Below, in pieces: positions 2,136 through 12,925 of a DNA stretch of 64,000 nucleotides. The DNA is taken from the NCBI GenBank assembly GCA_050745265.1, contig JBOGKE010000078.1, positions 36,841 through 100,840 of the forward strand, given 5' to 3'. The first letter of the stretch is position 1; the number at the start of each line of letters is the position of its first letter. The stretch is from Terriglobia bacterium. GTDB lineage: Bacteria > Acidobacteriota > Terriglobia > UBA7540. The position numbers and the translations under genes are program-made. The notes beneath the pieces were generated by a model. It saw nothing but the letters and a program-made list of their open reading frames with translations, was not told the origin of the DNA and searched no databases.

Positions 2136-3605
2136 ATGCATAGGGGTGCGGCGCGCTCGCTGTTCCTAACTGCTTTCATCCTGGCGCTTTTCGCAGCTCC
2201 GGGATCGGCCCAGACGCATCGGCTCACAACCGGAACCGAGCCCGCCCGGGCCGCCGGCCCAGTCCGGACCGGGTCCCCGCTCGACGCTCGCCTTGAGGCA
2301 AGGATCAGCGCCTTGGAGCGCCAATCCGCCGCAGCGCAGTCGGCGGGCGACAACTCCTGGGTCCTGATGAGCGCGGCCCTAGTGCTGCTGATGACGGGTC
2401 CCGGTCTTGCGCTGTTCTACGGCGGGCTGGTGCGCAAGAAGAACGTGCTTGCGACGATGATGCAAAGTTTCATCCTGATGGCAATTGTCACGGTGCTTTG
2501 GGTGCTGTTTGGGTACAGCCTGTGCTTTCACGAAGGCAACCGGTTCATCGGAAGTCTGGGCTATTCTTTCATGCACGGCGTCGGGGCCGCGCCGAATCCG
2601 GCCTACGCTCCCACCATCCCGCAGCAGAGCTATTTCCTTTTCCAGCTCATGTTCGCCATCATTACTCCGGCGTTAATCACCGGCGCGTTCGCCGAGCGGA
2701 TGAAATTCAGCGCGCTGGTGGTATTCATGATTCTGTGGACCACGTTCGTCTACGATCCGATGGCGCACATGGTGTGGGGCGCGGGCGGGCTGCTGAACGC
2801 GACGCTGGGCGGCGTGTTCCCGACGCTCGATTTCGCGGGCGGCACGGTGGTCCATATTACGTCCGGCATTTCGGCGCTGGTTTGCGCGCTGTACCTGGGC
2901 AAGCGCGTGGGCTACCCGCACGAGCCGATGCCGCCGCACAATGTGGTACTGAGCGTGATCGGCGCGTGCCTGCTGTGGGTGGGCTGGTTCGGCTTCAACG
3001 CGGGCAGCGCGCTGAGCGCGGGTAGCCTTGCCAGCAGCGCGTTTGCGGCGACTCAGCTCGGCGCCGCCGCGGCAGTGCTCGGCTGGATCGGCGCCGAGTG
3101 GATTCGAAACGGAAAACCGAGCGCGCTCGGCGCCATTTCGGGCGCGGTCGCGGGGCTGGTGGCGATCACGCCGGCTTCGGGATTCGTAGGGCCGATGTCC
3201 GCGCTCGCCATCGGCGTGATTGCCGGCGTGGTCTGTTTCTTCATGGTTTCAACGGTGAAGCGCCGGTTCGGGTACGATGATTCGCTGGACGCCTTCGGAG
3301 TGCACGGTGTGGGCGGCACGGTGGGCGCGCTGCTGACGGGAGTCTTCGCCGCAAGCGTCATCAACCCAGTGTTCAAAGACCGCTCCGGGCACGCCCTGCC
3401 TCTAGGCTTGATCGACGGACACGCCGGGCAGATCCTCGATCAGCTCGTCGCCGTCGTGATCGCCTGGGTGCTCGCGGGCGTCGTCACGCTGATCATCCTC
3501 AAAATCGTCGATGCTGTGATCGGGCTCCGCGTCGATCCCGAGCACGAGCTGCAGGGACTCGATGTCTCGCAGCACGGCGAAGAGGCATATAATCTGGAGG
3601 CGTAG
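2136..3605 (+). CDS. amtB: Ammonium transporter
   Basis: LMTGPGLALFYGG, FQLMFAIIT, DFAGGTVVH, WVGWFGFNAGS, DDSLDAFGVH; signal-peptide-like N-terminus. Confidence 0.98.
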   Translation: MHRGAARSLFLTAFILALFAAPGSAQTHRLTTGTEPARAAGPVRTGSPLDARLEARISALERQSAAAQSAGDNSWVLMSAALVLLMTGPGLALFYGGLVRKKNVLATMMQSFILMAIVTVLWVLFGYSLCFHEGNRFIGSLGYSFMHGVGAAPNPAYAPTIPQQSYFLFQLMFAIITPALITGAFAERMKFSALVVFMILWTTFVYDPMAHMVWGAGGLLNATLGGVFPTLDFAGGTVVHITSGISALVCALYLGKRVGYPHEPMPPHNVVLSVIGACLLWVGWFGFNAGSALSAGSLASSAFAATQLGAAAAVLGWIGAEWIRNGKPSALGAISGAVAGLVAITPASGFVGPMSALAIGVIAGVVCFFMVSTVKRRFGYDDSLDAFGVHGVGGTVGALLTGVFAASVINPVFKDRSGHALPLGLIDGHAGQILDQLVAVVIAWVLAGVVTLIILKIVDAVIGLRVDPEHELQGLDVSQHGEEAYNLEA

Positions 3606-3659
3606 CGGACTTCGCGCCGAATCGGGTGGCGCAACACGGCGGAACGGAAGGCGAGCGCA

Positions 3660-3998
3660 ATGAAGAAACTCGAAGCGATTATTCAGACTTCCCGGCTGAA
3701 TCCGGTGAAAGAAGCGCTGCAGGAAATTGGAGTTGACGGCATGACGGTCTCCGAGGTGCGCGGGCACGGGCGCCAAAAGGGTCATACCGAGGTGTACCGC
3801 GGCAATGAATACACCGTGGATCTGCTGCCGAAAATTAAGCTGGAAATTTTCCTGCCCGATCAACTCGTGGACTCCGCAGTCCAAGCGATCCTCAAGACGG
3901 CGAAGACCGGCAAAATCGGCGACGGCAAAATTTTCCTTTCCCAGGTGGAAGAAGCCATCCGCATTCGCAACGAGGAGCGAGGCGACGCTGCCTTGTGA
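3660..3998 (+). CDS. glnB: Nitrogen regulatory protein P-II (GlnB/GlnK)
   Basis: 112 aa; GHGRQKG, T-loop YRGNEY (Tyr51), TGKIGDGKIF. Confidence 0.97.
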   Translation: MKKLEAIIQTSRLNPVKEALQEIGVDGMTVSEVRGHGRQKGHTEVYRGNEYTVDLLPKIKLEIFLPDQLVDSAVQAILKTAKTGKIGDGKIFLSQVEEAIRIRNEERGDAAL

Positions 3999-4010
3999 GG
4001 CGCCGCACCG

Positions 4011-6701
4011 GTGCGCGAGAAGACGCAAACACGGCTTCTGCCCGAGCTGGCGACCCGCTCCGCGGCGCAGTTTTCGGAGCTGCGGGCCGCGTTTGAGGCC
4101 ACGGGCGACGGCCGTGATTGTCTGCGGCGTCGCTCCGAGCTCGTCGATGCGATCGTCCGTGAGCTTTATTTGGCGTGGATCGCTTCCCTTCCCGCCGATC
4201 CCGAGGGCGTCTGCCTGATCGCGGTGGGGGGTTACGGCCGCGCCGATCTCTTTCCTTACTCCGACCTCGACCTGCTCTTCGTCGCGCGCGACAGCCGCAT
4301 TCTCAGTTCGTGCCGCGACGCGATCGCCGGACTGGCTCGCGACCTTTGGGACTTGCAGATGCGCGTTTCTCACTCGGCGCGCACGCTTGAGGAGTGCGCC
4401 CGTTTCGACTCGGAAAATCTCGAGTTCAGCATTTCGCTGCTCGACCTTCGGTATCTCGCAGGCGAACGCGCGCTGTTCGAAGCGCTCCAGAACCAGACCC
4501 TTCCGCACCTGATCGGTCGCGACGGCCCCGATTTGGTGCGTAATCTGGTCAGCAAGTCCTCCGAGCGCCACTCGAAGCACGGCCACACCATTTTTCATCT
4601 CGAGCCCGACGTGAAAGAAGCGCCGGGCGGATTGCGCGACTATCACGTCGCCCGATGGCTGGCGCGAATCCGCGAAATCTCGTCCAGCGGCCGCGGGGCC
4701 TCCGCCGCCGGGCCTACTGCCGAGCCGGCGCAACGGGTCGAACAGGCCGTGCAGTTCTTATCGAGCGTGCGCTGTTTTTTGCATTTCGATCGCAAGCGCA
4801 ACGATAATCTCCTCACCTACGAGCTGCAGGACGAGGCCGCCGCGCGCGCCATCGGCGGCGCTGAGGGACTTGGCGGCAAGCCCGGCAATTCCCGCAAGTC
4901 CACCGACGCGGCGCAATGGATGCGGGCGTATTACCGGCACGTCCGCTCGGTCGAAAGTTTTGCAGGCCGCGCGATTGAAGACTCGCGCCCGCCGAGGTCG
5001 TCGCTCTACGGCCTGTTCCAGGATTGGCGTTCGCGGCTCTCCACCGCCGATTTCTCCGTGATCCAGGGTAAAATTTTTCCCCGCTCGCCCGCGCCCGCCG
5101 GATGGCCCGCTCTGCTCAGCCTGTTTGAAATGATGGCGCGCCACTCGCTCGACCTCAGCCGCGAGGCCGAGCGGTGGGTTGAAGAGAGCCGCGCCGGGCT
5201 TGTTGCATCCGCAACACCGGCCCCCGATTCGCCGCCTGCGCCGCCTAGGGCGACACCGGCCAGGCCGCCTCAGTGGCCCGCGTTCCGCAGGATGCTCGCT
5301 TTGCCCGCCACGGCGAATGCTCTGCGGGCCATGCACCGGCTCGGCCTTCTCGACGAGCTCATCCCGGAGTTTCGCTCGATCGATGCGCTCGTCATCCGCG
5401 ACTTCTACCATCGCTATACGGTAGACGAGCACACTTTTATGACCATCGAAACCTTGTGCGAGCTGAAGCGCGGTTCGCGCGAGGCTGAAAGCGGAACCGA
5501 AGAAAACCTCGGCGCCTGGAAAGCGAAACTGAGCGATCTCTACGCCGCGATCGAGCAGCCCGAGCTCCTGACGCTTGCCCTGCTGCTGCACGACGTGGGT
5601 AAAGGGATGGAAGCGCCCGATCACGCAGCCGGAAGCGTAGAGGCGGCGCGCACCGCGTCCATGCGGCTCGGCTTGGATGCCCAGGACCAGGAGACACTGT
5701 GCTTTCTGATCGCTTCCCATCTCGAGATGTCCGCCACGGTTTCGCGCCGCGATATCTTCGACCCTGAAACGCTGCGATCGTTTGCGGCGAAGGTCGGTAC
5801 ATCCGAGCGGCTCAAGATGCTGTGCCTCATGACTTGCTCCGACATCCAGGGCGTGAACCCGGAGGCGCTGACCCCGTGGAAAGCGGAAATGATCTGGCAG
5901 CTTTACCTGATGAGCGCGAATTATCTGTTGCGCAGCGTCGATGAGGATCGATTGCAGACGGCGCAGCCGTCCCTATCCGGCGAGCTCCGGGCGCCGGGCG
6001 GCGATGATCGGAGCGAGCTCAAGCTCTTTCTCGAAGGCTTTCCCAGAAGATACCTCGCCGCCCACTCTCCTTCTGAAATCGCCGAGCACGTGCAATGGGC
6101 CCGCAAAGTCTCGCAGAATACAGTCTACGTGAAAGTGCGGCGGCGCGGCGCGTTCAGCGAGCTCGCCGTGCTCGCCCTGGATCGCCCGCTCCTGTTCGCC
6201 TCTGTCACCGGAACGCTGGCCGCCTGGGGGATGAACATCATCAAAGCGGAGGCATTCGCGAATCGCTCGGGCCTGGTGCTCGATATCTTCCGTTTTCACG
6301 ATCTCTACCGCACGCTCGAGCTGAACCCTTCCGAAACCGAGCGCCTGGAGCAGGCGATTTCAGACGTTCTCGCGGGCAGCGTCAGCGTTGCGGCGCTGCT
6401 GCAAGGCCGCAGCTGGCCGCCCGCCGTCAAGGCCAAAGTTCGCATCGCGACTCGGGTCAGCTTTGATGATTCCGCTTCATCCCGCTGCACCATCCTGGAG
6501 CTGCTGGCCCAGGACCGCCCCGGCCTGCTTTACACCGCCAGCACAATTCTCGCTCGCTTCGGCTGCAGCATCGAAGTCGCCATGATTGAAACCGAAGCGC
6601 AGAAGGCCGTCGACGTGTTCTACCTGACGCGATCCGGCGCCAAGCTTTCTCCCGACGTACAACAGGAAATCTACTCCGCGCTAATCCAGCAGCTTTCGTG
6701 A
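4011..6701 (+). CDS. glnD: [Protein-PII] uridylyltransferase
   Basis: AVGGYGR..YSDLDLL NT domain, EPDVKEAPGGLRD, YTVDEH, LLHDVGKG HD domain, two ACT domains (DRPLLF, DRPGLL). Confidence 0.95.
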   Translation: MREKTQTRLLPELATRSAAQFSELRAAFEATGDGRDCLRRRSELVDAIVRELYLAWIASLPADPEGVCLIAVGGYGRADLFPYSDLDLLFVARDSRILSSCRDAIAGLARDLWDLQMRVSHSARTLEECARFDSENLEFSISLLDLRYLAGERALFEALQNQTLPHLIGRDGPDLVRNLVSKSSERHSKHGHTIFHLEPDVKEAPGGLRDYHVARWLARIREISSSGRGASAAGPTAEPAQRVEQAVQFLSSVRCFLHFDRKRNDNLLTYELQDEAAARAIGGAEGLGGKPGNSRKSTDAAQWMRAYYRHVRSVESFAGRAIEDSRPPRSSLYGLFQDWRSRLSTADFSVIQGKIFPRSPAPAGWPALLSLFEMMARHSLDLSREAERWVEESRAGLVASATPAPDSPPAPPRATPARPPQWPAFRRMLALPATANALRAMHRLGLLDELIPEFRSIDALVIRDFYHRYTVDEHTFMTIETLCELKRGSREAESGTEENLGAWKAKLSDLYAAIEQPELLTLALLLHDVGKGMEAPDHAAGSVEAARTASMRLGLDAQDQETLCFLIASHLEMSATVSRRDIFDPETLRSFAAKVGTSERLKMLCLMTCSDIQGVNPEALTPWKAEMIWQLYLMSANYLLRSVDEDRLQTAQPSLSGELRAPGGDDRSELKLFLEGFPRRYLAAHSPSEIAEHVQWARKVSQNTVYVKVRRRGAFSELAVLALDRPLLFASVTGTLAAWGMNIIKAEAFANRSGLVLDIFRFHDLYRTLELNPSETERLEQAISDVLAGSVSVAALLQGRSWPPAVKAKVRIATRVSFDDSASSRCTILELLAQDRPGLLYTASTILARFGCSIEVAMIETEAQKAVDVFYLTRSGAKLSPDVQQEIYSALIQQLS

Positions 6702-6809: not shown

Positions 6810-7595
6810 ATGGTCACCAACGGGAGTCCTGACGCTTGGCTCGCCGTGGGCTGCATCTTCGGGCTGGTCTGGTTTGCGAGAGGGTTCCAGCTTTACCGCA
6901 AGTCCCTGATCATCGAGGATACGCCGGTGGTTCCGATCCGTAGCGCGGCGATGGGACGGATTCAGACCAAGGGCACCGCGCAGGCAGATGACACGTTCCC
7001 GAGCTTTGTAAGTGGAGAGCGCTGCTGCGTGGCGAAGGTGCAAATTGACCGCTGGGTTGCCAATCGCAGCGGCGGCCACTGGGAGCACTACCGCACCGAC
7101 CGCCAGGGCGTTCCATTTTACCTGGAAGATGAGACGGGGCGGGTGCGCGTGGATCCGCGCGGCTGCGATCTCGACGTGCCAGTGTATTGCCGCCGGGAAA
7201 TCGGGAGCATCCTCGCCTCAGCGATGCGGGAATACGCGCTCGGCCCATTCGCCGCGCATGGAGGTCCGAGCGGGCGCACGGATGACGAACTCCTCGCCTA
7301 CGCGGCGCCGGGCCTGTTCGGGTCACATAAATTTCGCTTCTCGGAATACCTCGTGCAGCCCGGCGGGCAGTACGACATGCTCGGCACCTGCGCGGAGAAT
7401 CCCAACCCAGCCGGGCCAGACGATCACAACCTGATCACTCAGGGCCAAAACGGACAACTGTTCCTGATTTCGTCCCTGACGGAGAAACAACTGGAGCAAA
7501 GCCTGAGCTGGAAATCGAGCTTGCACGTGTGGGGTGGGGCGGCGCTGTCAGTCGCGTGCGCCGCAACCCTTGTGGCCCGGCATCGCTGGTTTTGA
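6810..7595 (+). CDS. GIDE-like domain membrane protein (no RING)
   Basis: N- and C-terminal TM helices; IEDTP..IRSAAMG and PFYLEDETGRVRVDP resemble the GIDE family; directly upstream of lemA. Confidence 0.65.
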   Translation: MVTNGSPDAWLAVGCIFGLVWFARGFQLYRKSLIIEDTPVVPIRSAAMGRIQTKGTAQADDTFPSFVSGERCCVAKVQIDRWVANRSGGHWEHYRTDRQGVPFYLEDETGRVRVDPRGCDLDVPVYCRREIGSILASAMREYALGPFAAHGGPSGRTDDELLAYAAPGLFGSHKFRFSEYLVQPGGQYDMLGTCAENPNPAGPDDHNLITQGQNGQLFLISSLTEKQLEQSLSWKSSLHVWGGAALSVACAATLVARHRWF

Positions 7596-7620
7596 TTTCC
7601 GCAACCAAGGGGAATAAACC

Positions 7621-8181
7621 ATGAGCTTTGTAATTAGCCTGGTGATTTTGCTGCTGATAGCGGCTTGCGTGATCTATGCCGTCATGATCTACAACAGCCT
7701 GGTAGATCTGAAAAATAATGTGGACAAGGCGTGGGCCAACATTGACGTGCTCCTAAAGGAACGCCATGACGAGCTGCCCAAGCTGATCGACACCTGCAAA
7801 GGCTACATGCAGTACGAACAGCGAACGTTCGAGATGATCACGCAAGCGCGCACCGCCTACCAGAGTGCTTCGTCGGTGCAGGAGAAAGCGCAGGCGGAGC
7901 AGACGCTGACCGGTGCGTTGAAGACGCTCTTTGCGGTTGCGGAAAATTATCCCGAATTGAAGGCGAATAACGACTTCATGCAGCTTCAACAGCGTATCAC
8001 CGAGATCGAGGAGCGAATCGCCGACCGCCGCGAATTTTTCAATGACAGCGTCAATACCTACAACATCCGCATTCAGCAGGCTCCTGAAGCGATGATCGCC
8101 GGCATGATGCACCTGGAACCGCATGATTTGTTCAAGGCCGCCGAAGCAGACCGCCAGGATGTGCAAGTAAATTTCGCGTGA
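7621..8181 (+). CDS. lemA: LemA family protein
   Basis: N-terminal TM, YNSLV, AWANIDVLLKERHDELPKL, AVAENYPELKAN, RREFFNDSV. Confidence 0.96.
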   Translation: MSFVISLVILLLIAACVIYAVMIYNSLVDLKNNVDKAWANIDVLLKERHDELPKLIDTCKGYMQYEQRTFEMITQARTAYQSASSVQEKAQAEQTLTGALKTLFAVAENYPELKANNDFMQLQQRITEIEERIADRREFFNDSVNTYNIRIQQAPEAMIAGMMHLEPHDLFKAAEADRQDVQVNFA

Positions 8182-8355: not shown

Positions 8356-11300
8356 TCAGCGCGGACGGCTCGACCCGGAGACGGACGCGGGCGGCGCGGC
8401 CAGATCGCGGGGGCACGCCTGGTGCAAGTACTCCTTGCATTCATCTTGCGTCCAGGCGCGGACAGTCCGGCGGCGCACCAGGCGCAGGAGCTCTTGATCG
8501 TCCAATATGAAAACGCGCACCATGCCGTCGTCGCAGGCCGTGGCCAGTCGTTTCCCGTCCGGGCTGAACGAAACCTGTTCGACGCCGCTCGGGTGAGTGA
8601 AACGGAACAGTTCGTCGCCCGTGCGCGCGTCCCAGACCCTCGCCGTTCGGTCAAAACTGGCGGTGGCGACGCGGGTACCATCGTAACTGAAGGCAATACC
8701 ATCAACAACGTTGGTATGTCCCCTCAGAACAATCTTCCGACCGGTATTCAGGTCCCAGATGATCCCCGTGTGATCGGCGCTGGCAGTGGCCAGGCGTTTG
8801 CCGTGAGGGCTGAAGGCCACCCATTCCACTTGACCATGGTGCCCCGACAACCCGCGAAGCTGCTTTCCGGATGAGGCGTCCCAAACTCGCGCGGTCCAAT
8901 CCAATGATGCCGCGGCCACGAGCTTACCATCGCGGCTGAACGCTACGCCGTCCACGTACACCTGGCCGCCGCTCATCGTCAGGAGGGTGCGACCGGTGGC
9001 GACGTCCCACACTACGACGCTATTTGCAGGTCCAGAACTCGCCAATCGGCTTCCGTCCAGGCTGAATGCTAAGCCGCTTGGCGAGCCCGCGGGCCATGAT
9101 CGCACCAGCCGGCCCGTCGCGGTATCGTGAATTTCTATGTGGCCCGCCATATCGTAGGTCGCAATGAGACTCGCATCCCGGCTCAGCGCCGCTGCGAAGA
9201 TCGGTTGTTTGGAGGCTTCAGGAATCGTCCGGGTGATGCGATCCGCGTCGCCATCCCACAATTTCGCCGTTGCGTCGAGGCTGGCGCTCGCCACCCGGTC
9301 TCCGCGCGCGCTGAAAGCCACGTCTTCGATGGCGTTGCGGTGAACCCCGGGCACATTCCAATACCGGACCGTTCGGTCCCAGCTTCCGGTCAGCAAATGG
9401 TCGCCCCGCGGATCGAATGATATGCTCCGGACGGCTCCTTTGTGCCCGAGCAGCTCCAGAAGCTGGCGTCCCGTCGCCACGTCCCAGATCGCTACCCGGC
9501 CGTCCTCATTACCTGTCGCGAGGCGGGCCCCGCTCGGGCTGAAGCAAAGGCTGACGACGTCGTTCCCGGGCCCGGATAAGGTTTCGATCGGGCGGCCGGA
9601 GGCCGAGTCCCATATCTTGACGGTCCGATCGGAGCTGCTCGACGCAAGCCGGCGGCCGTCCGCGCTGAAGGCCACCGCCTGAATGGGCAGAGTGTGACCC
9701 TGGAGCGTCTTGAACAATCGTCCGATTTTCGAATCCCAGATTTTGACCGTCTTATCAGCGCTGCCCGTAGCCAGGCGTGTGCCGTCGCGACTGAAGGCCA
9801 GGGCCGTAACAGACAGTTTATGGAATTGCTTCGGAGAGAAATTTGCTCGTCCCGTTCTCGAGTCATAGACAGCAACGGTTCCGTTGATGCCGCCCACCGC
9901 CAGAAGCACCCCGGTTTCGCTGAACACCGCCCCGCTTACGCTCTCGGGCAGTCCTGGAAGGCTGATCGACCGGCGCGAAGCCAGGATCCAGACTCGAAGC
10001 TGCTTGTGCAAATCCGCGGTGACGAGCAAGCTTCCGTCTGGAGACAGAGCCGTCATCGCAACCTGGTATCCTCCGCCGCGAAGGGTGGCCAATTGCTTAT
10101 TTGAGGCAACATCCCACACTCGGACGGTCCCGCCCTGCTCTGCCGCGGCCATCCGCTTTCCATCCGGGGTGAAACTGATCGCCCACACACCATCCGCTCC
10201 CAACTCCGGAGTCGTCCGGCGCAACCACGACGTCTGCACGGCGCGATTCAGCGCATCACGCGCCTCGTTTCGCAGGTCCCGCACGTCGTATCTCAAGCTC
10301 GCGGGAAGTGTGTTATTGTCCAACCGCATGAGCGAAGACTCGGCGTACGTCGCGAGCAGCACGCTGCGCTCAGGATTCGTATCCAGATTGCCGGAACTGG
10401 CCGAGATCAGACCGTGCGCGACCTCCATCTGCGCCTCGGCGCCAGCTCTCTTCCAATTTCTGCGGGCCATCGAGGCAAGGACAACCGCCAGCAGAGCCAA
10501 AAACGCCGCCGCGATCAGCATCCAGCGCGTTCGACGAAGCGCCCTGGCCCTCTCTTCCAGGCGCCCCTGCCGCTCGTTTGCGAGCAACTGAGCCTTCTCC
10601 GCCAGTTCCCGCTGGCGGCGAGCCTCGTCTTCCTGCCGGGCGGCTTCGAGGGCGGCCTCCTTTTCAGCAACGAGCTGTTTTTGAGCCTGAATGTACTGGG
10701 CGCGCCACTCGAGAATGGGGCGGCCGAGCACGTCGTGGAAGATTTCAAATCGTGGCGGCAGCGACACACGCCGCAGCACGCGCCGGTCGGAAAGCTTGAG
10801 CAGCACCGGCCACACCTGTTCGCGAGACAATTCGGCCCACGAGACCAGGTCCGAGGTTTCCTGGGCGATCTTCTTGTAGTTGGGAGTGACAAGATAGCGG
10901 AAAATTCGAGCGCAGATCATCCGCTCATCCTCTGAAAGCCCGTCCATCACATGCGCCAGATGACTCTGCAGAATTCGATCCGCTTTCCCGAGCTCTTCGA
11001 AGGTGCTCAGCCGGATCACGCGCGACTGCCGCTCGTTGATTTCCTCGTTCCACAGGCGCTCCATCACGAGTTGGAGGAACGGAGTTTCAATCCGCTCCTC
11101 TCTTGCCTGGCCTTCGGTCTGGCCCGCCCCGCCGAATTCGCAGCTCTGCAGCTTTCCGGTCCGGACTTCGTCGAGGATTGAGCGCACCAATTCATCTTCA
11201 ATGGCGACGGGCGCGCCGTTCGCGAGCTTTTGATTATAGAGGTCAAGGGGCTTCCGGATCGCCTCCTCGGCCGCCGCCATATTCAGATGGTCGATGCGAA

Positions 11301-11877
11301 ACGTATTGCTCAGCAGATTCGGGATTCGCGCGTCGAAGCGGTCCAGGCGGGAGAGCCAGTCGTCGCGGAGCGAGATGGCGAAACCCGACTCGGACTCGAT
11401 GCCATTGATGGCTGCCGCGAGCTCCCCGTCGAACGGCGCCTCCGACTCGGGATGATAGAGGAAGTATTCTTCGAACTGGTCGAGAATCACAAGAATCGCG
11501 CCATCAAAAGCGGCGCCGATCGCCGCAAGCAGGTCCGGCAACGGCAGATCCAGATTCAGCCCCAAGGGCTTTCCAAGCTTCGCCTCAACGGCGTTCGCAC
11601 ACTTCTCCTTGAGCGCCGTGGCAAACTTGGGATCCTGCCATTGACTGAAGTACACGGGGACGGTGCGAGACGCGGAATCAAGGCCCGGAACGACGCCGGC
11701 CGCAAGGACGGATGTTTTGCCCACGCCGCTCGCGCCGTAAAGAACCGTCACCGGCGCCGCATAAAGACTCGACGAAATGATCGTCTGCTCGCGCTCGCGT
11801 CCGAAGAAATACTCGCGCTCTCCCGCGGTGAACGGTTGCAGGCCCACGTAGGGACAGAATGGAGCGCCTTGCGGAAT
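8356..11877 (-). CDS. nSTAND1-type STAND NTPase + coiled coil + TM helix + 14 WD40 repeats
   Basis: Walker A GASGVGKT, Walker B LDQFEE, FEIFHDVL; 14 WD repeats counted by eye; the family motif CPYVGLQPF extends upstream of track start GTG 11847, so start is placed tentatively at ATT 11877. Confidence 0.9.
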   Translation of the reverse strand: MPQGAPFCPYVGLQPFTAGEREYFFGREREQTIISSSLYAAPVTVLYGASGVGKTSVLAAGVVPGLDSASRTVPVYFSQWQDPKFATALKEKCANAVEAKLGKPLGLNLDLPLPDLLAAIGAAFDGAILVILDQFEEYFLYHPESEAPFDGELAAAINGIESESGFAISLRDDWLSRLDRFDARIPNLLSNTFRIDHLNMAAAEEAIRKPLDLYNQKLANGAPVAIEDELVRSILDEVRTGKLQSCEFGGAGQTEGQAREERIETPFLQLVMERLWNEEINERQSRVIRLSTFEELGKADRILQSHLAHVMDGLSEDERMICARIFRYLVTPNYKKIAQETSDLVSWAELSREQVWPVLLKLSDRRVLRRVSLPPRFEIFHDVLGRPILEWRAQYIQAQKQLVAEKEAALEAARQEDEARRQRELAEKAQLLANERQGRLEERARALRRTRWMLIAAAFLALLAVVLASMARRNWKRAGAEAQMEVAHGLISASSGNLDTNPERSVLLATYAESSLMRLDNNTLPASLRYDVRDLRNEARDALNRAVQTSWLRRTTPELGADGVWAISFTPDGKRMAAAEQGGTVRVWDVASNKQLATLRGGGYQVAMTALSPDGSLLVTADLHKQLRVWILASRRSISLPGLPESVSGAVFSETGVLLAVGGINGTVAVYDSRTGRANFSPKQFHKLSVTALAFSRDGTRLATGSADKTVKIWDSKIGRLFKTLQGHTLPIQAVAFSADGRRLASSSSDRTVKIWDSASGRPIETLSGPGNDVVSLCFSPSGARLATGNEDGRVAIWDVATGRQLLELLGHKGAVRSISFDPRGDHLLTGSWDRTVRYWNVPGVHRNAIEDVAFSARGDRVASASLDATAKLWDGDADRITRTIPEASKQPIFAAALSRDASLIATYDMAGHIEIHDTATGRLVRSWPAGSPSGLAFSLDGSRLASSGPANSVVVWDVATGRTLLTMSGGQVYVDGVAFSRDGKLVAAASLDWTARVWDASSGKQLRGLSGHHGQVEWVAFSPHGKRLATASADHTGIIWDLNTGRKIVLRGHTNVVDGIAFSYDGTRVATASFDRTARVWDARTGDELFRFTHPSGVEQVSFSPDGKRLATACDDGMVRVFILDDQELLRLVRRRTVRAWTQDECKEYLHQACPRDLAAPPASVSGSSRPR

Positions 11878-11878
11878 A

Positions 11879-12850
11879 CTAACCTCCCATGACTGACCGG
11901 GTTTCCCGCAGTTTCGCGGCGAAGTCGTCGAGGTCGCAATCGAAAATCTTGACGTTGCGCCGATCCCACAGCGCGCGCTCTACATCGGAAGGATTCCGCT
12001 GGATTCCCCACGATTTCGGCGGCTCGTCATGACCGCTCGCGGCCGCCTGGTTGCGCGAGGCGAAGTGGTTGCTCATATTTTTCAGCACCAGCCTCAGGTT
12101 CCAATCTCTCAGCCCGTAGCCGAGAAACAGAAAGCTGCGCTCGCGGAAATATTGATAAAAGAACGCCGGCACCGCGCTGTTCGTGGTCATGCGCGAAAGA
12201 AACTCGACGTAGTCCTCTTCGGTGATCACGAAGTGGTCCCACTTATCGGTGGCGCGGGTGATCGAGCCGTGCATCTTGAAGATCACGGTCGTCTTGCTCA
12301 GATCGATGTAGAGCTTCTTGGGGCTTTCGAACCGAGGTTCCGGGTCGGCGTGAGGCCGCCAGAGGATGGAGTTGGCGTGCTCCTTGCTGTCCGCAGGATA
12401 TACGACGAGGTCGTAGGGTTTGCCCGCTTCGTCAAACGCCTGCTCCACCAGCGTGTCGTAGTTGGTCACGACGATCACCTGCGGCACGGGGATTTCCGCG
12501 AGGAGTTGGTGCAACGGGCCGGGCCTGTAATCTCGGTTCAGAATGAGGCGGAGACGGTTGCGAAGGTTCGGGCGGTCGCTCACGTCGACGTAGTAGGAGC
12601 ACACTTTCGCCAGGTCGCTGCGCTCCCACAATTCCGTGGCCGGGTAGCCCGTCTCCTGAGCCAGCAGACAGGAAAGCTCGGAGCCCGTCGGAAGGAACGC
12701 GGACCCGCGAGGGTCCCACGCTGCCCCGCTCGGGCGCCCGGCACAGGACGCGCCCGCGCCCAGAAATGGAATCACGCGCCCCTGCCGCCACACGTTCCAG
12801 ATCGGGCCATACGGCGGCGTTGGTCCGACCGCGATACCCGCTGCTCCCAT
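11879..12850 (-). CDS. SIR2-like (SIR2_2) NADase-type protein
   Basis: VIPFLGAGAS, VTNYD, FKMHGS, FLFLGYGLRDWN; ATG 12850 preferred because track start 12925 overlaps the promoter. Confidence 0.92.
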   Translation of the reverse strand: MGAAGIAVGPTPPYGPIWNVWRQGRVIPFLGAGASCAGRPSGAAWDPRGSAFLPTGSELSCLLAQETGYPATELWERSDLAKVCSYYVDVSDRPNLRNRLRLILNRDYRPGPLHQLLAEIPVPQVIVVTNYDTLVEQAFDEAGKPYDLVVYPADSKEHANSILWRPHADPEPRFESPKKLYIDLSKTTVIFKMHGSITRATDKWDHFVITEEDYVEFLSRMTTNSAVPAFFYQYFRERSFLFLGYGLRDWNLRLVLKNMSNHFASRNQAAASGHDEPPKSWGIQRNPSDVERALWDRRNVKIFDCDLDDFAAKLRETRSVMGG

Positions 12851-12896
12851 AGGTACCCCGGCTATGCTATTTAGCTGAAGATTAACCGTTGCTCGA

Positions 12897-12925
12897 ACCA
12901 TATACCCCCTGCACTTGTTTGTCAA
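12897..12925 (-). promoter_or_regulatory. Sigma70 promoter of the SIR2-STAND operon
   Basis: TTGACA (12925-20), 17-nt spacer, TATGGT (12902-897). Confidence 0.75.

What the first reader, a model, noticed from the sequence alone, without database searches (positions are those of the whole stretch)
8356..12925. Candidate immune system: stand-alone SIR2 NADase + Apaf-1-like nSTAND1-WD40 sensor
This is a two-gene minus-strand operon with its own TTGACA-N17-TATGGT promoter and only 1 nt between the inferred genes. Gene 1 keeps the SIR2 NADase motifs GAGAS, TNYD and HG, as in ThsA/DSR/Avs-type effectors. Gene 2 has nSTAND1 Walker A/B, a coiled coil, one TM and 14 WD40 repeats (two 7-bladed propellers, as in Apaf-1). 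In characterised SIR2-STAND (Avs) systems the effector is fused and the sensor is typically TPR. An effector in trans with a double-propeller sensor suggests ligand-triggered oligomerisation recruiting the NADase, inflammasome-style. Defence function is inference.
Basis: partly seen in the sequence, partly recalled or inferred. Interest (0 to 1): 0.9.

Follow-up and report, generated by a model that had tools for sequence, protein, structure and literature searches.

The report
Membrane-spanning STAND receptor with separate SIR2 NADase
The two genes are a real, strongly co-conserved pair found in at least eleven bacterial phyla: a defence-type NAD-destroying enzyme and a membrane-spanning ATPase receptor whose variable sensor probably faces outside the cell, so it is a likely but untested immune module.

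Summary
On the minus strand lie a 323-aa SIR2_2 protein (11879..12850) and an nSTAND1 NTPase with a coiled coil, one TM helix and 14 WD40 repeats (8356..11877).

The '1 nt gap' is right only if gene 2 starts at ATT 11877. A GGGAGG Shine-Dalgarno, the invariant FCPY motif and the same junction in the closest relative support that start.

The pair is not a chance adjacency. In 79 of 80 genome loci carrying this SIR2 clade, an nSTAND1 NTPase lies beside it. The two proteins co-diverge (Mantel r 0.75). In soluble relatives the same SIR2 clade is fused to the C-terminus of nSTAND1.

The SIR2 model matches only defence NADases (KomC, DSR2, ThsA, Avs5).

WD40 is not the defining feature; only about half of the relatives have it. 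The constant features are the split SIR2 and a TM helix after the NTPase.

Neither protein passes the model cut-off of any named defence system tested (PADLOC 2.0, NCBIfam), and I found no description in the literature held. Defence function remains inference.

Verdict: new variant of a known kind (STAND plus SIR2 NADase). Interest 0.62.

The parts
12897..12925 (-). Sigma-70-like promoter TTGACA-N17-TATGGT upstream of the SIR2 gene
   Evidence: Read directly and the only hit of the scan (10 of 12 matches). The chance expectation is 1.0 per region, so the position is suggestive but the match alone is not significant.
11879..12850 (-). Gene 1: stand-alone SIR2 (SIRim-type) NADase, 323 aa, ATG 12850 to TAG 11881..11879
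   Evidence: PF13289, E 2.5e-25. The N-terminus aligns with homologues from ATG 12850. The AlphaFold model has pLDDT 79.5. All 21 Foldseek hits with E<=0.001 are defence SIR2 NADases.
12746..12760 (-). GAGAS NAD-binding loop (residues 31-35)
   Evidence: invariant in 27 homologues.
12455..12466 (-). TNYD motif with the catalytic Asn130
   Evidence: T129, N130, Y131 and D132 are invariant.
12266..12274 (-). MHG motif with the catalytic His194
   Evidence: K192, M193, H194 and G195 are invariant.
11883..11888 (-). GGGAGG Shine-Dalgarno for gene 2, embedded in the last codons of gene 1
   Evidence: Read. It lies 5 nt upstream of ATT 11877. The same arrangement occurs in relative L086.
8356..11877 (-). 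Gene 2: nSTAND1 NTPase, coiled coil, TM and 14 WD40 repeats; 1173 aa from ATT 11877 (1163 aa if from GTG 11847)
   Evidence: PF20703, E 7e-40, plus WD40 families. The AlphaFold model has pLDDT 83.8. Full-length Apaf-1 is the best full-architecture match, E about 1e-42.
10735..11877 (-). nSTAND1 NTPase module (residues 1-381), including the N-terminal FCPYVGLQPF motif
11710..11736 (-). Walker A, GASGVGKTS
   Evidence: G48, S50, G51, V52, G53, K54 and S56 are invariant in 32 homologues.
11467..11493 (-). Walker B, LVILDQFEE
   Evidence: D133, Q134, F135 and E136 are invariant.
10522..10734 (-). Long charged helix (putative coiled coil) linking the NTPase to the membrane
   Evidence: Helix 382-436 plus the start of helix 449-497 in the model. 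The sequence is E/R/A/Q-rich. No coiled-coil predictor was run.
10465..10521 (-). Single transmembrane helix, MLIAAAFLALLAVVLASMA (residues 453-471)
   Evidence: Hydropathy 2.65. It is conserved in position in 67 of 73 loci and 84 of 89 database relatives, with K/R counts of about 5.4 on the N-side and 2.5-2.9 on the C-side.
10231..10464 (-). Juxtamembrane helical region after the TM helix
   Evidence: Helices 502-521 and 526-549 in the model.
9352..10230 (-). First 7-bladed WD40 propeller (repeats 1-7)
   Evidence: 28 strands at 552-841 in the model; repeats read.
8500..9351 (-). Second WD40 propeller (repeats 8-14; repeat 8 poorly modelled)

Best explanation
This is a two-gene, translationally coupled conflict (abortive-infection-type) module. 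Gene 2 encodes a single-pass membrane STAND receptor. Its nSTAND1 NTPase and coiled coil lie in the cytoplasm, and its variable C-terminal domain (here two WD40 propellers) lies on the extracytoplasmic side.

Proposed steps:
1. A cue binds the outer domain.
2. The signal passes through the TM helix and coiled coil.
3. The NTPase exchanges nucleotide and oligomerises at the membrane.
4. The oligomer recruits or nucleates the separately encoded SIR2 protein. Its relatives KomC, ThsA and Avs5 are active as helical assemblies.
5. SIR2 hydrolyses NAD+ and arrests or kills the cell.

Shown here:
- the gene pair and its tight co-conservation;
- intact catalytic and P-loop motifs;
- a defence-type SIR2 fold;
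- the conserved TM helix with positive-inside bias;
- natural nSTAND1-SIR2 fusions in soluble relatives.

Inferred:
- NADase activity;
- activation by oligomerisation;
- the outside location of the sensor;
- the nature of the cue;
- the anti-phage role.
For: Pairing:
- 79 of 80 genome loci with this SIR2 clade have an nSTAND1 NTPase beside it. In 75 it lies directly downstream on the same strand; in 3 one extra gene intervenes; in 1 it lies upstream. The one exception is a 2.7-kb contig.
- The start usually overlaps or abuts the SIR2 stop.
- The reciprocal check holds. The patatin and TPR variants of the NTPase have an annotated SIR2_2 gene directly upstream. The PASTA variant has an unannotated 187-aa gene cut by the contig edge in that position.
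- SIR2 and NTPase identities co-vary: Mantel r 0.75, 0 of 999 permutations.
- Fusions: the same SIR2 clade (36-45% identity) sits at the C-terminus of soluble nSTAND1-HEAT proteins that lack any TM helix.

Effector type:
- The PDB profile search gives KomC, ThsA and DSR2.
- Foldseek's top 21 hits are all defence NADases, including Avs5 and SPARSA, while sirtuin deacetylases score E>0.01.
- Asn130 and His194 are invariant.
- There is no conserved Cys tetrad, as described for SIRim proteins (bioRxiv 10.1101/2024.09.18.613514).

Topology:
- The TM helix is conserved.
- The N-side flank carries more K/R than the C-side in 62 of 67 and in 78 of 84.
- PASTA, an extracellular-type domain, follows the TM helix. 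In the kinase variant the kinase precedes the TM block.

Sensor-like behaviour:
- The post-TM domain is swapped among WD40, TPR and others.
- It diverges faster than the NTPase: 30-49% against 50-61% identity.

Context:
- About 10% of immediate neighbours in other genomes are strong PADLOC hits, including TIR effectors, LmuA, Avs1a, DRT and PDC-S15/S35.
- A lipase-CHAT protein is adjacent in 13 loci.
Against: - No experiment exists for any member.
- The window flanks are housekeeping genes: amtB, glnD, LemA, a TPR protein and a multihaem cytochrome.
- The nSTAND1 NTPase domain matches no PADLOC 2.0 model, the full-length protein matches one only through its WD40 repeats, and neither protein reaches an NCBIfam cut-off.
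- There is no copy on plasmids or phages in the collections searched.
- FHA and patatin domains are usually cytoplasmic, yet in some relatives they follow the TM helix, which fits poorly with an outside location.
- In the window itself the K/R bias is weak, 6 against 4.
- A few relatives (for example L017) lack the TM helix yet keep a split SIR2.
- The ATT start might mean low expression, or a decaying gene, in this particular genome.
- No dedicated topology predictor and no complex prediction could be run.
Confidence: 0.55

Rival explanations
1. This is an Avs/Apaf-1-like cytosolic receptor. The WD40 propellers bind a phage protein inside the cell, the STAND oligomerises, and it recruits SIR2. 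The hydrophobic helix is only a membrane tether or is not membrane-spanning.
For: - Full-length Apaf-1 is the best whole-architecture match.
- FHA and patatin, which are cytoplasmic-type domains, occur after the helix in relatives.
- L017 has WD40 repeats without a TM helix.
- All characterised Avs proteins sense cytoplasmic phage proteins (PMC12803255).
Against: - A single 19-23-residue helix with hydropathy of 2.0-3.5 is conserved at one position in about 92-94% of relatives. Such a helix must put the two ends of the protein on opposite sides of the membrane.
- Positive-inside bias and the need for ATP keep the NTPase inside.
- The PASTA variant and the position of the kinase before the TM block fit an outward-facing C-terminus.
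- Soluble relatives without a TM helix carry the SIR2 fused.
Confidence: 0.2
2. This is a non-immune transmembrane signalling module. The receptor reports an envelope or environmental cue, such as cell-wall fragments, neighbouring cells or developmental cell death. SIR2 then acts as a regulated NAD-consuming enzyme, either as a deacylase or ADP-ribosyltransferase on a specific target or through controlled lowering of NAD+.
For: - The window has a housekeeping context.
- The gene position near the lpx genes is conserved within Pyrinomonadaceae, which suggests vertical inheritance there.
- No plasmid or phage copies were found.
- PASTA and kinase variants recall PknB-type wall sensing.
Against: - The SIR2 fold and sequence group only with defence NADases, and the Zn and peptide-binding module of deacylases is absent.
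- The distribution is patchy: 153 hits among 185,579 species genomes, spread over at least 11 phyla.
- Decayed copies exist.
- Some loci sit next to TIR, Lamassu, Avs, DRT and CHAT modules.
- The same SIR2 clade is fused to CHAT and to the DUF4062 TIR-like NADase.
Confidence: 0.15
3. A single SIR2-STAND fusion protein is made by +1 frameshifting at the stop codon. The SD-like GGGAGG lies just upstream of the stop, and the STAND frame opens 1 nt after it. The product would be an Avs5-like protein.
For: - The stop-T-ATT junction with an upstream GGGAGG is conserved in two relatives.
- No canonical start codon exists in L086 before its Walker A.
Against: - The P-site codons GGT and GGC offer no plausible +1 re-pairing. 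This is my own inference from the sequence.
- In the other loci the STAND gene has its own ATG, GTG or TTG that overlaps or abuts the stop.
- A spacing of 5 nt from GGGAGG to ATT is ideal for initiation.
Confidence: 0.03

Closest known systems
Avs5 / AVAST type 5 (SIR2-STAND; e.g. EfAvs5; PMC11897194, PMC12931631)
   Same: Both combine a defence-type SIR2 NADase effector with a STAND NTPase and a C-terminal sensor. The Avs5 SIR2 is a significant structural match (9jap, 9nc9). The likely logic of oligomerisation-activated NAD+ depletion is the same.
   Different: - Avs5 is one soluble polypeptide with the SIR2 at the N-terminus. Here SIR2 is a separate gene product.
- The NTPase here belongs to the nSTAND1 clade.
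- A TM helix separates the NTPase from the sensor.
- The NCBIfam Avs5 model scores 14 bits against a cut-off of 1000.
Soluble nSTAND1-HEAT-SIR2 fusion proteins (uncharacterised; P0261, P0265, P0289, P0316, P0333)
   Same: Both have the same SIR2 clade (36-45% identity, E 1e-57 to 1e-77) and an nSTAND1 NTPase (29% identity, E 6e-26).
   Different: These are single chains with the SIR2 at the C-terminus, helical HEAT-like repeats in between, and no TM helix. None has been characterised.
Apaf-1 and bacterial Apaf-1-like WD40 STANDs (PMC12803255)
   Same: Both are a STAND NTPase followed by two WD40 propellers. Full-length Apaf-1 is the best whole-length structural match.
   Different: - There is no CARD or caspase.
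- The NTPase is assigned to nSTAND1, not NB-ARC.
- A coiled coil and a TM helix are inserted between the NOD and the propellers.
- The effector is a SIR2 encoded separately.
- WD40 is dispensable in the family.
nSTAND1 conflict systems of Kaur, Burroughs, Iyer and Aravind (PMC8195603, PMC7159879)
   Same: Both have the same NTPase clade, variable repeat sensors, and the concept of effectors coupled to a STAND core.
   Different: Those papers describe coupling through EAD or Death-like adaptor domains, with effectors such as trypsin, caspase and TIR. Here no adaptor domain is detectable, because nSTAND1 starts at residue 2 and gene 1 is SIR2 only. Neither main text describes a SIR2 plus TM-nSTAND1 pair.
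Stand-alone or partnered defence SIR2 proteins: KomC (Kongming), ThsA (Thoeris), DSR2, SIR2-HerA
   Same: The SIR2 catalytic domain is the closest in sequence and structure. KomC, like this protein, is a small SIR2-only protein that works with a partner.
   Different: The partners differ: KomA/KomB nucleotide signalling, ThsB TIR with a SLOG domain, the DSR2 fused sensor, and the HerA ATPase. None of these is encoded here, and identity is only 16-24%.

Membership tests
SIR2_2 / SIRim (defence-type SIR2 NADases) | Match to PF13289 above the gathering score | tested here: met
   89.7 bits against a cut-off of 24.5.
SIR2_2 / SIRim (defence-type SIR2 NADases) | Catalytic Asn and His and a Gly-rich NAD loop are present; the Zn-binding Cys tetrad of sirtuins is absent | tested here: met
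   GAGAS, N130 and H194 are invariant and no Cys is conserved. The fold groups with KomC, DSR2, ThsA and Avs5 and not with SIRT2.
SIR2_2 / SIRim (defence-type SIR2 NADases) | NAD+ hydrolase activity | not testable with these tools
   This needs an enzyme assay.
nSTAND1 STAND NTPases (PF20703) | Match above the gathering score, with intact Walker A and Walker B | tested here: met
   138.2 bits against a cut-off of 27.1, covering profile positions 4-370 of 379. The motifs are invariant.
Avs5 / AVAST type 5 | A single polypeptide with N-terminal SIR2, a STAND and a sensor | tested here: not met
   The two ORFs are in different frames and are separated by a stop codon.
Avs5 / AVAST type 5 | NCBIfam NF041814 equivalog score | tested here: not met
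   14 bits against a cut-off of 1000.
DSR2 | NCBIfam NF041819 equivalog score; a protein of about 1000 aa with SIR2 and a fused sensor | tested here: not met
   24.5 bits against a cut-off of 1400, confined to a 48-residue stretch.
Thoeris (ThsA/ThsB) | ThsA made of SIR2 plus a SLOG/STALD domain, with an adjacent ThsB TIR gene | tested here: not met
   The PADLOC ThsA1 models match only the SIR2 part, at most to profile position 216. No SLOG domain is present and there is no TIR gene in the flanks.
Apaf-1 / AP-ATPase orthologues | NB-ARC-type NTPase with an N-terminal CARD or caspase and no membrane segment | tested here: not met
   nSTAND1 is the NTPase family listed (NB-ARC is not among the 25 families shown), there is no N-terminal domain, and a TM helix is present. 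Only the overall architecture resembles Apaf-1.
EAD-coupled STAND/ternary conflict systems (Kaur et al. 2020) | Matching effector-associated (Death-like) adaptor domains on the effector and the NTPase | tested here: not met
   Pfam finds only SIR2_2 in gene 1, and nSTAND1 starts at residue 2 of gene 2. No sensitive profile search with EAD alignments was done.
Known or candidate defence systems in PADLOC-DB 2.0 | All system components match the system's models | tested here: not met
   The NTPase domain has no hit. The full-length protein hits only HEAT-ARM_XIII through its WD40 repeats. Newer DefenseFinder and PADLOC releases were not available.

The most novel reading that the evidence does not exclude
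This would be an 'outside-in' bacterial NLR-like receptor. A STAND NTPase spans the inner membrane and carries an interchangeable extracytoplasmic sensor (WD40, TPR, PASTA or unknown folds). It would detect a threat at the envelope, such as phage tail or injection proteins, wall damage or foreign cells, before or without cytoplasmic entry. It would then switch on a separately encoded cytoplasmic SIR2 NADase. In logic this is closer to a Toll-like receptor than to Apaf-1 or Avs.
Probability: 0.4. Interest if true: 0.8.

Novelty: new variant of a known kind. Interest (0 to 1): 0.62.

Why it matters
All characterised bacterial STAND/Avs receptors are soluble proteins that sense phage proteins in the cytoplasm and carry their effector in the same chain. 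A widespread family in which the STAND crosses the membrane, presents a swappable domain on the far side and controls a separate NAD+-degrading enzyme would add a new signalling geometry to prokaryotic immunity. It would also give a testable case of trans-membrane activation of a NOD module.

The family is tractable. The pair occurs in cultured strains: Geobacter hydrogenophilus DSM 13691 (L010), Aromatoleum diolicum 22Lin (L047) and Variovorax sp. J22P240 (L085).

The conserved ATT initiation codon is a small, separate point for gene annotation. Gene callers truncate the protein in the window and miss the P-loop altogether in the closest relative.

Tried and rejected
1. Chance adjacency. Rejected: 79 of 80 loci are paired.
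2. A conserved third gene. All-against-all clustering of flanking ORFs found none that is universal. The recurrent neighbours are either Pyrinomonadaceae synteny (radical SAM, lpxD/A/B) or a lipase-CHAT protein present in 13 loci only.
3. EACC1 or EAD systems of Kaur et al. These have a different architecture, and the 2020 paper does not mention SIR2.
4. PADLOC and NCBIfam naming. Only partial SIR2-domain hits and a WD40-mediated HEAT-ARM_XIII hit were found.
5. PDB sequence search with the NTPase domain. Nothing scored below E 0.1.
6. Plasmid and phage collections. There was one distant Nonomuraea hit and nothing in phages.
7. The promoter as independent evidence. It is no better than the chance expectation, and no convincing terminator follows gene 2.
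8. 'SIR2 is far more conserved than the NTPase'. Not so: mean pairwise identity is 55.5% against 51.0%.
9. Literature searches with six sets of terms found no description of this pair. Supplementary tables of the STAND surveys were not searched.
10. One call failed on an out-of-range coordinate and one script failed on a frame error. Both were repeated correctly.

Full report
**1. Observation**

The region holds two minus-strand ORFs.

Gene 1 matches PF13289 SIR2_2 (E 2.5e-25).
- The homologue alignment fixes its start at ATG 12850, giving 323 aa.
- GAGAS (residues 31-35), TNYD (129-132) and MHG (193-195) are present and invariant in 27 homologues.

Gene 2 matches PF20703 nSTAND1 over residues 2-405 (E 7e-40), plus many WD40 propeller families.
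- Walker A is GASGVGKTS and Walker B is LVILDQFEE; both are intact.
- A single hydrophobic helix, MLIAAAFLALLAVVLASMA (hydropathy 2.65), follows a long charged helix.
- Fourteen WD units can be read.
- The AlphaFold model (pLDDT 83.8) gives a clean 28-strand propeller and a second one whose first blade is poorly modelled.

The promoter TTGACA-N17-TATGGT sits at 12925..12897. One such match per 5 kb is what shuffled sequence gives, so it is well placed but not independent evidence.

**2. The gene junction**

With canonical start codons, gene 2 begins at GTG 11847, 31 nt after the SIR2 stop codon. The reading frame, however, opens 1 nt after TAG with ATT (11877), and four observations favour that codon as the start.
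- GGGAGG lies 5 nt upstream of the ATT.
- The ten codons between ATT and GTG encode FCPY, whose Cys and Pro are invariant in 32 homologues.
- In the 80 related loci the STAND start normally overlaps or abuts the SIR2 stop, and FCPY follows a few residues later.
- The closest relative (L086, SIR2 69% identical) has the same GGGAGG-stop-T-ATT junction. It has GTC instead of GTG, and no canonical or CTG start before its Walker A. The gene caller there lost the first 127 codons, including the P-loop.

A +1 frameshift fusion is a remote alternative.

**3. Is the pair real?**

The SIR2 has more than 2,600 database relatives. The top 120 are all stand-alone proteins of about 310 aa at 57-69% identity.

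A scan of one genome per species (185,579 species) found 153 relatives, and I examined the best 80.
- They come from Acidobacteriota, Desulfobacterota (Geobacter), Chloroflexota, Verrucomicrobiota, Pseudomonadota, Bacteroidota, Gemmatimonadota, Myxococcota, Planctomycetota, Bacillota and Dadabacteria.
- In 79 of the 80 an nSTAND1 NTPase lies beside the SIR2. The exception is a 2.7-kb contig that ends just after the SIR2 gene.

Starting instead from the NTPase gives the same answer.
- The patatin and TPR variants have an annotated SIR2_2 gene directly upstream.
- The PASTA variant has an unannotated 187-aa gene, cut by the contig edge, in that position.

Pairwise identities of SIR2 and the NTPase co-vary (Mantel r 0.75, 0 of 999 permutations).

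An exhaustive search of cluster representatives found 491 relatives at E<=1e-30. Among them are proteins in which this SIR2 clade is fused to the C-terminus of an nSTAND1 NTPase through HEAT-like repeats (P0261, P0265, P0289, P0316, P0333). These fusions have no TM helix. Their NTPase is 29% identical to the window's (E 6e-26). This gene fusion is independent evidence of a functional link.

No third gene is universally conserved.

**4. What kind of SIR2?**

- A profile search of PDB sequences gives KomC (Kongming), ThsA and DSR2.
- The AlphaFold model (pLDDT 79.5) has 21 Foldseek hits with E<=0.001. All are defence NADases: KomC, DSR2, ThsA, Avs5 and SPARSA. Classical sirtuins score E>0.01.
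- There is no conserved cysteine tetrad. That absence is the SIRim signature described in bioRxiv 10.1101/2024.09.18.613514.
- Several of the matching structures are helical assemblies. This motivates, but does not show, activation by oligomerisation.

**5. What is constant and what varies in the STAND?**

WD40 is present after the NTPase in only 35 of 64 complete loci.
- Other loci have TPR, weak pYEATS or PKD matches, or nothing recognisable, including a 165-aa class in Geobacter.
- The protein database adds PASTA, patatin, FHA and kinase variants.

The constant feature is a hydrophobic helix about 395 residues after Walker A.
- It is present in 67 of 73 loci and in 84 of 89 database relatives.
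- K/R counts are 5.4-5.5 on the N-side and 2.5-2.9 on the C-side. The N-side is the richer in 62 of 67 and in 78 of 84.

A single span with an ATP-dependent N-terminal module implies an N-in, C-out topology.
- Consistent with this, PASTA follows the helix, and in the kinase variant the kinase precedes a multi-TM block.
- Inconsistent or puzzling: FHA and patatin also follow the helix.

The post-TM region diverges faster than the NTPase (30-49% against 50-61% identity).

Soluble relatives have the SIR2 fused at the C-terminus, and membrane-spanning ones have it split off. This fits the idea that the effector had to become a separate cytoplasmic protein once the C-terminus was exported. That reading is inference, and a few TM-less split examples such as L017 exist.

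**6. Context**

- The window flanks are amtB, glnD, a GIDE-like and LemA pair, a TPR protein, a multihaem cytochrome and a PIG-L protein. This is not a defence island.
- In other genomes, about 12-14 of 133 immediate neighbours give strong PADLOC hits: TIR effectors, LmuA, Avs1a, PycTIR, DRT and PDC-S15/S35. I did not count 11 radical-SAM 'pVip' hits, which I take to be generic.
- Thirteen loci have an adjacent lipase-CHAT protein.
- The Variovorax locus lies among Tn3, PemK and NUDIX genes.
- No plasmid or phage copies were found.
- Overall the context is mildly supportive of a conflict role and not decisive.

**7. Comparison with known systems**

The closest characterised analogue is Avs5, a SIR2-STAND protein.
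- It shares the effector type and the STAND logic.
- It differs in gene organisation, NTPase clade, the membrane span and model scores (14 bits against a cut-off of 1000).

Apaf-1 is the best whole-length structural match. However, the NTPase is nSTAND1, there is no CARD, and WD40 is dispensable.

nSTAND1 was named in PMC8195603. That paper and PMC7159879 describe other effectors and adaptor-mediated coupling, not this pair.

The 2026 STAND survey (PMC12803255) notes WD40 Apaf-1-like sensors. It scores clades partly by fused effectors, so it could overlook this family.

PADLOC 2.0 has no model that matches the nSTAND1 NTPase domain.

I therefore file the pair as a new variant of a known kind, with one caveat. 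Supplementary catalogues and newer DefenseFinder and PADLOC releases were not searchable.

**8. Verdict**

The anatomy is confirmed and co-conservation is strong. The effector type is well supported. The defence role and mechanism are inferred. Interest is 0.62.

Noticed in passing
window 11875..11888; L086 1410..1422: The STAND gene appears to start at a non-canonical ATT, 1 nt after the SIR2 stop and behind a GGGAGG. The same junction is conserved in the closest relative. Gene callers start the window protein at GTG 11847, and in L086 they start 127 codons late, which loses the P-loop.
   Followed up: yes
P0261, P0265, P0289, P0316, P0333 (database proteins): Soluble proteins without a TM helix, built as nSTAND1, HEAT-like repeats and a C-terminal SIR2 of the same SIR2 clade. 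This is a fused counterpart of the split system and appears uncharacterised.
   Followed up: partly
P0252, P0274, P0287 (database proteins): The same SIR2 clade is also fused to DUF4062, recently described as a TIR-like NADase (bioRxiv 10.64898/2026.05.01.722283), and to a CHAT protease. The DUF4062 fusions would carry two NAD-targeting domains in one chain.
   Followed up: no
L035 4389..7988, L009 10854..16907, L032 2110..5697 and 10 other loci: A giant protein combining a lipase (LCAT-like alpha/beta-hydrolase) with a CHAT protease lies next to the SIR2-STAND pair in 13 of 80 loci from three phyla. In Pyrinomonadaceae it ends 7 nt before the SIR2 start. Geobacter loci also carry a clostripain (C11) peptidase gene.
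   Followed up: partly
L035 9037..10350, L040 8979..10397, L048 2423..3829: An extra gene of 437-472 aa with no Pfam or PADLOC match is inserted between SIR2 and the STAND gene in three Pyrinomonadaceae loci.
   Followed up: partly
L018, L019, L068, L074: These loci hold disrupted copies of the STAND gene or the pair (frameshifted or truncated ORFs of 80-217 aa). They may reflect real decay or MAG assembly errors.
   Followed up: no
L038, L044, L062, L079: A second nSTAND1 paralogue lies within a few kb of the SIR2-STAND pair.
   Followed up: no
window 6810..8181 (+): A GIDE-like membrane protein (PF12483) is followed 25 nt later by LemA (PF04011), convergent with the STAND gene. LemA gives a weak PADLOC BovA hit (E 1.4e-5).
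   Followed up: no
window 2136..6701 (+): The ammonium transporter amtB is followed by the PII uridylyltransferase glnD, an ordinary nitrogen-regulation cluster. The window comes from MAG GCA_973413625.1, contig CCXGKL010000102.1.
   Followed up: no
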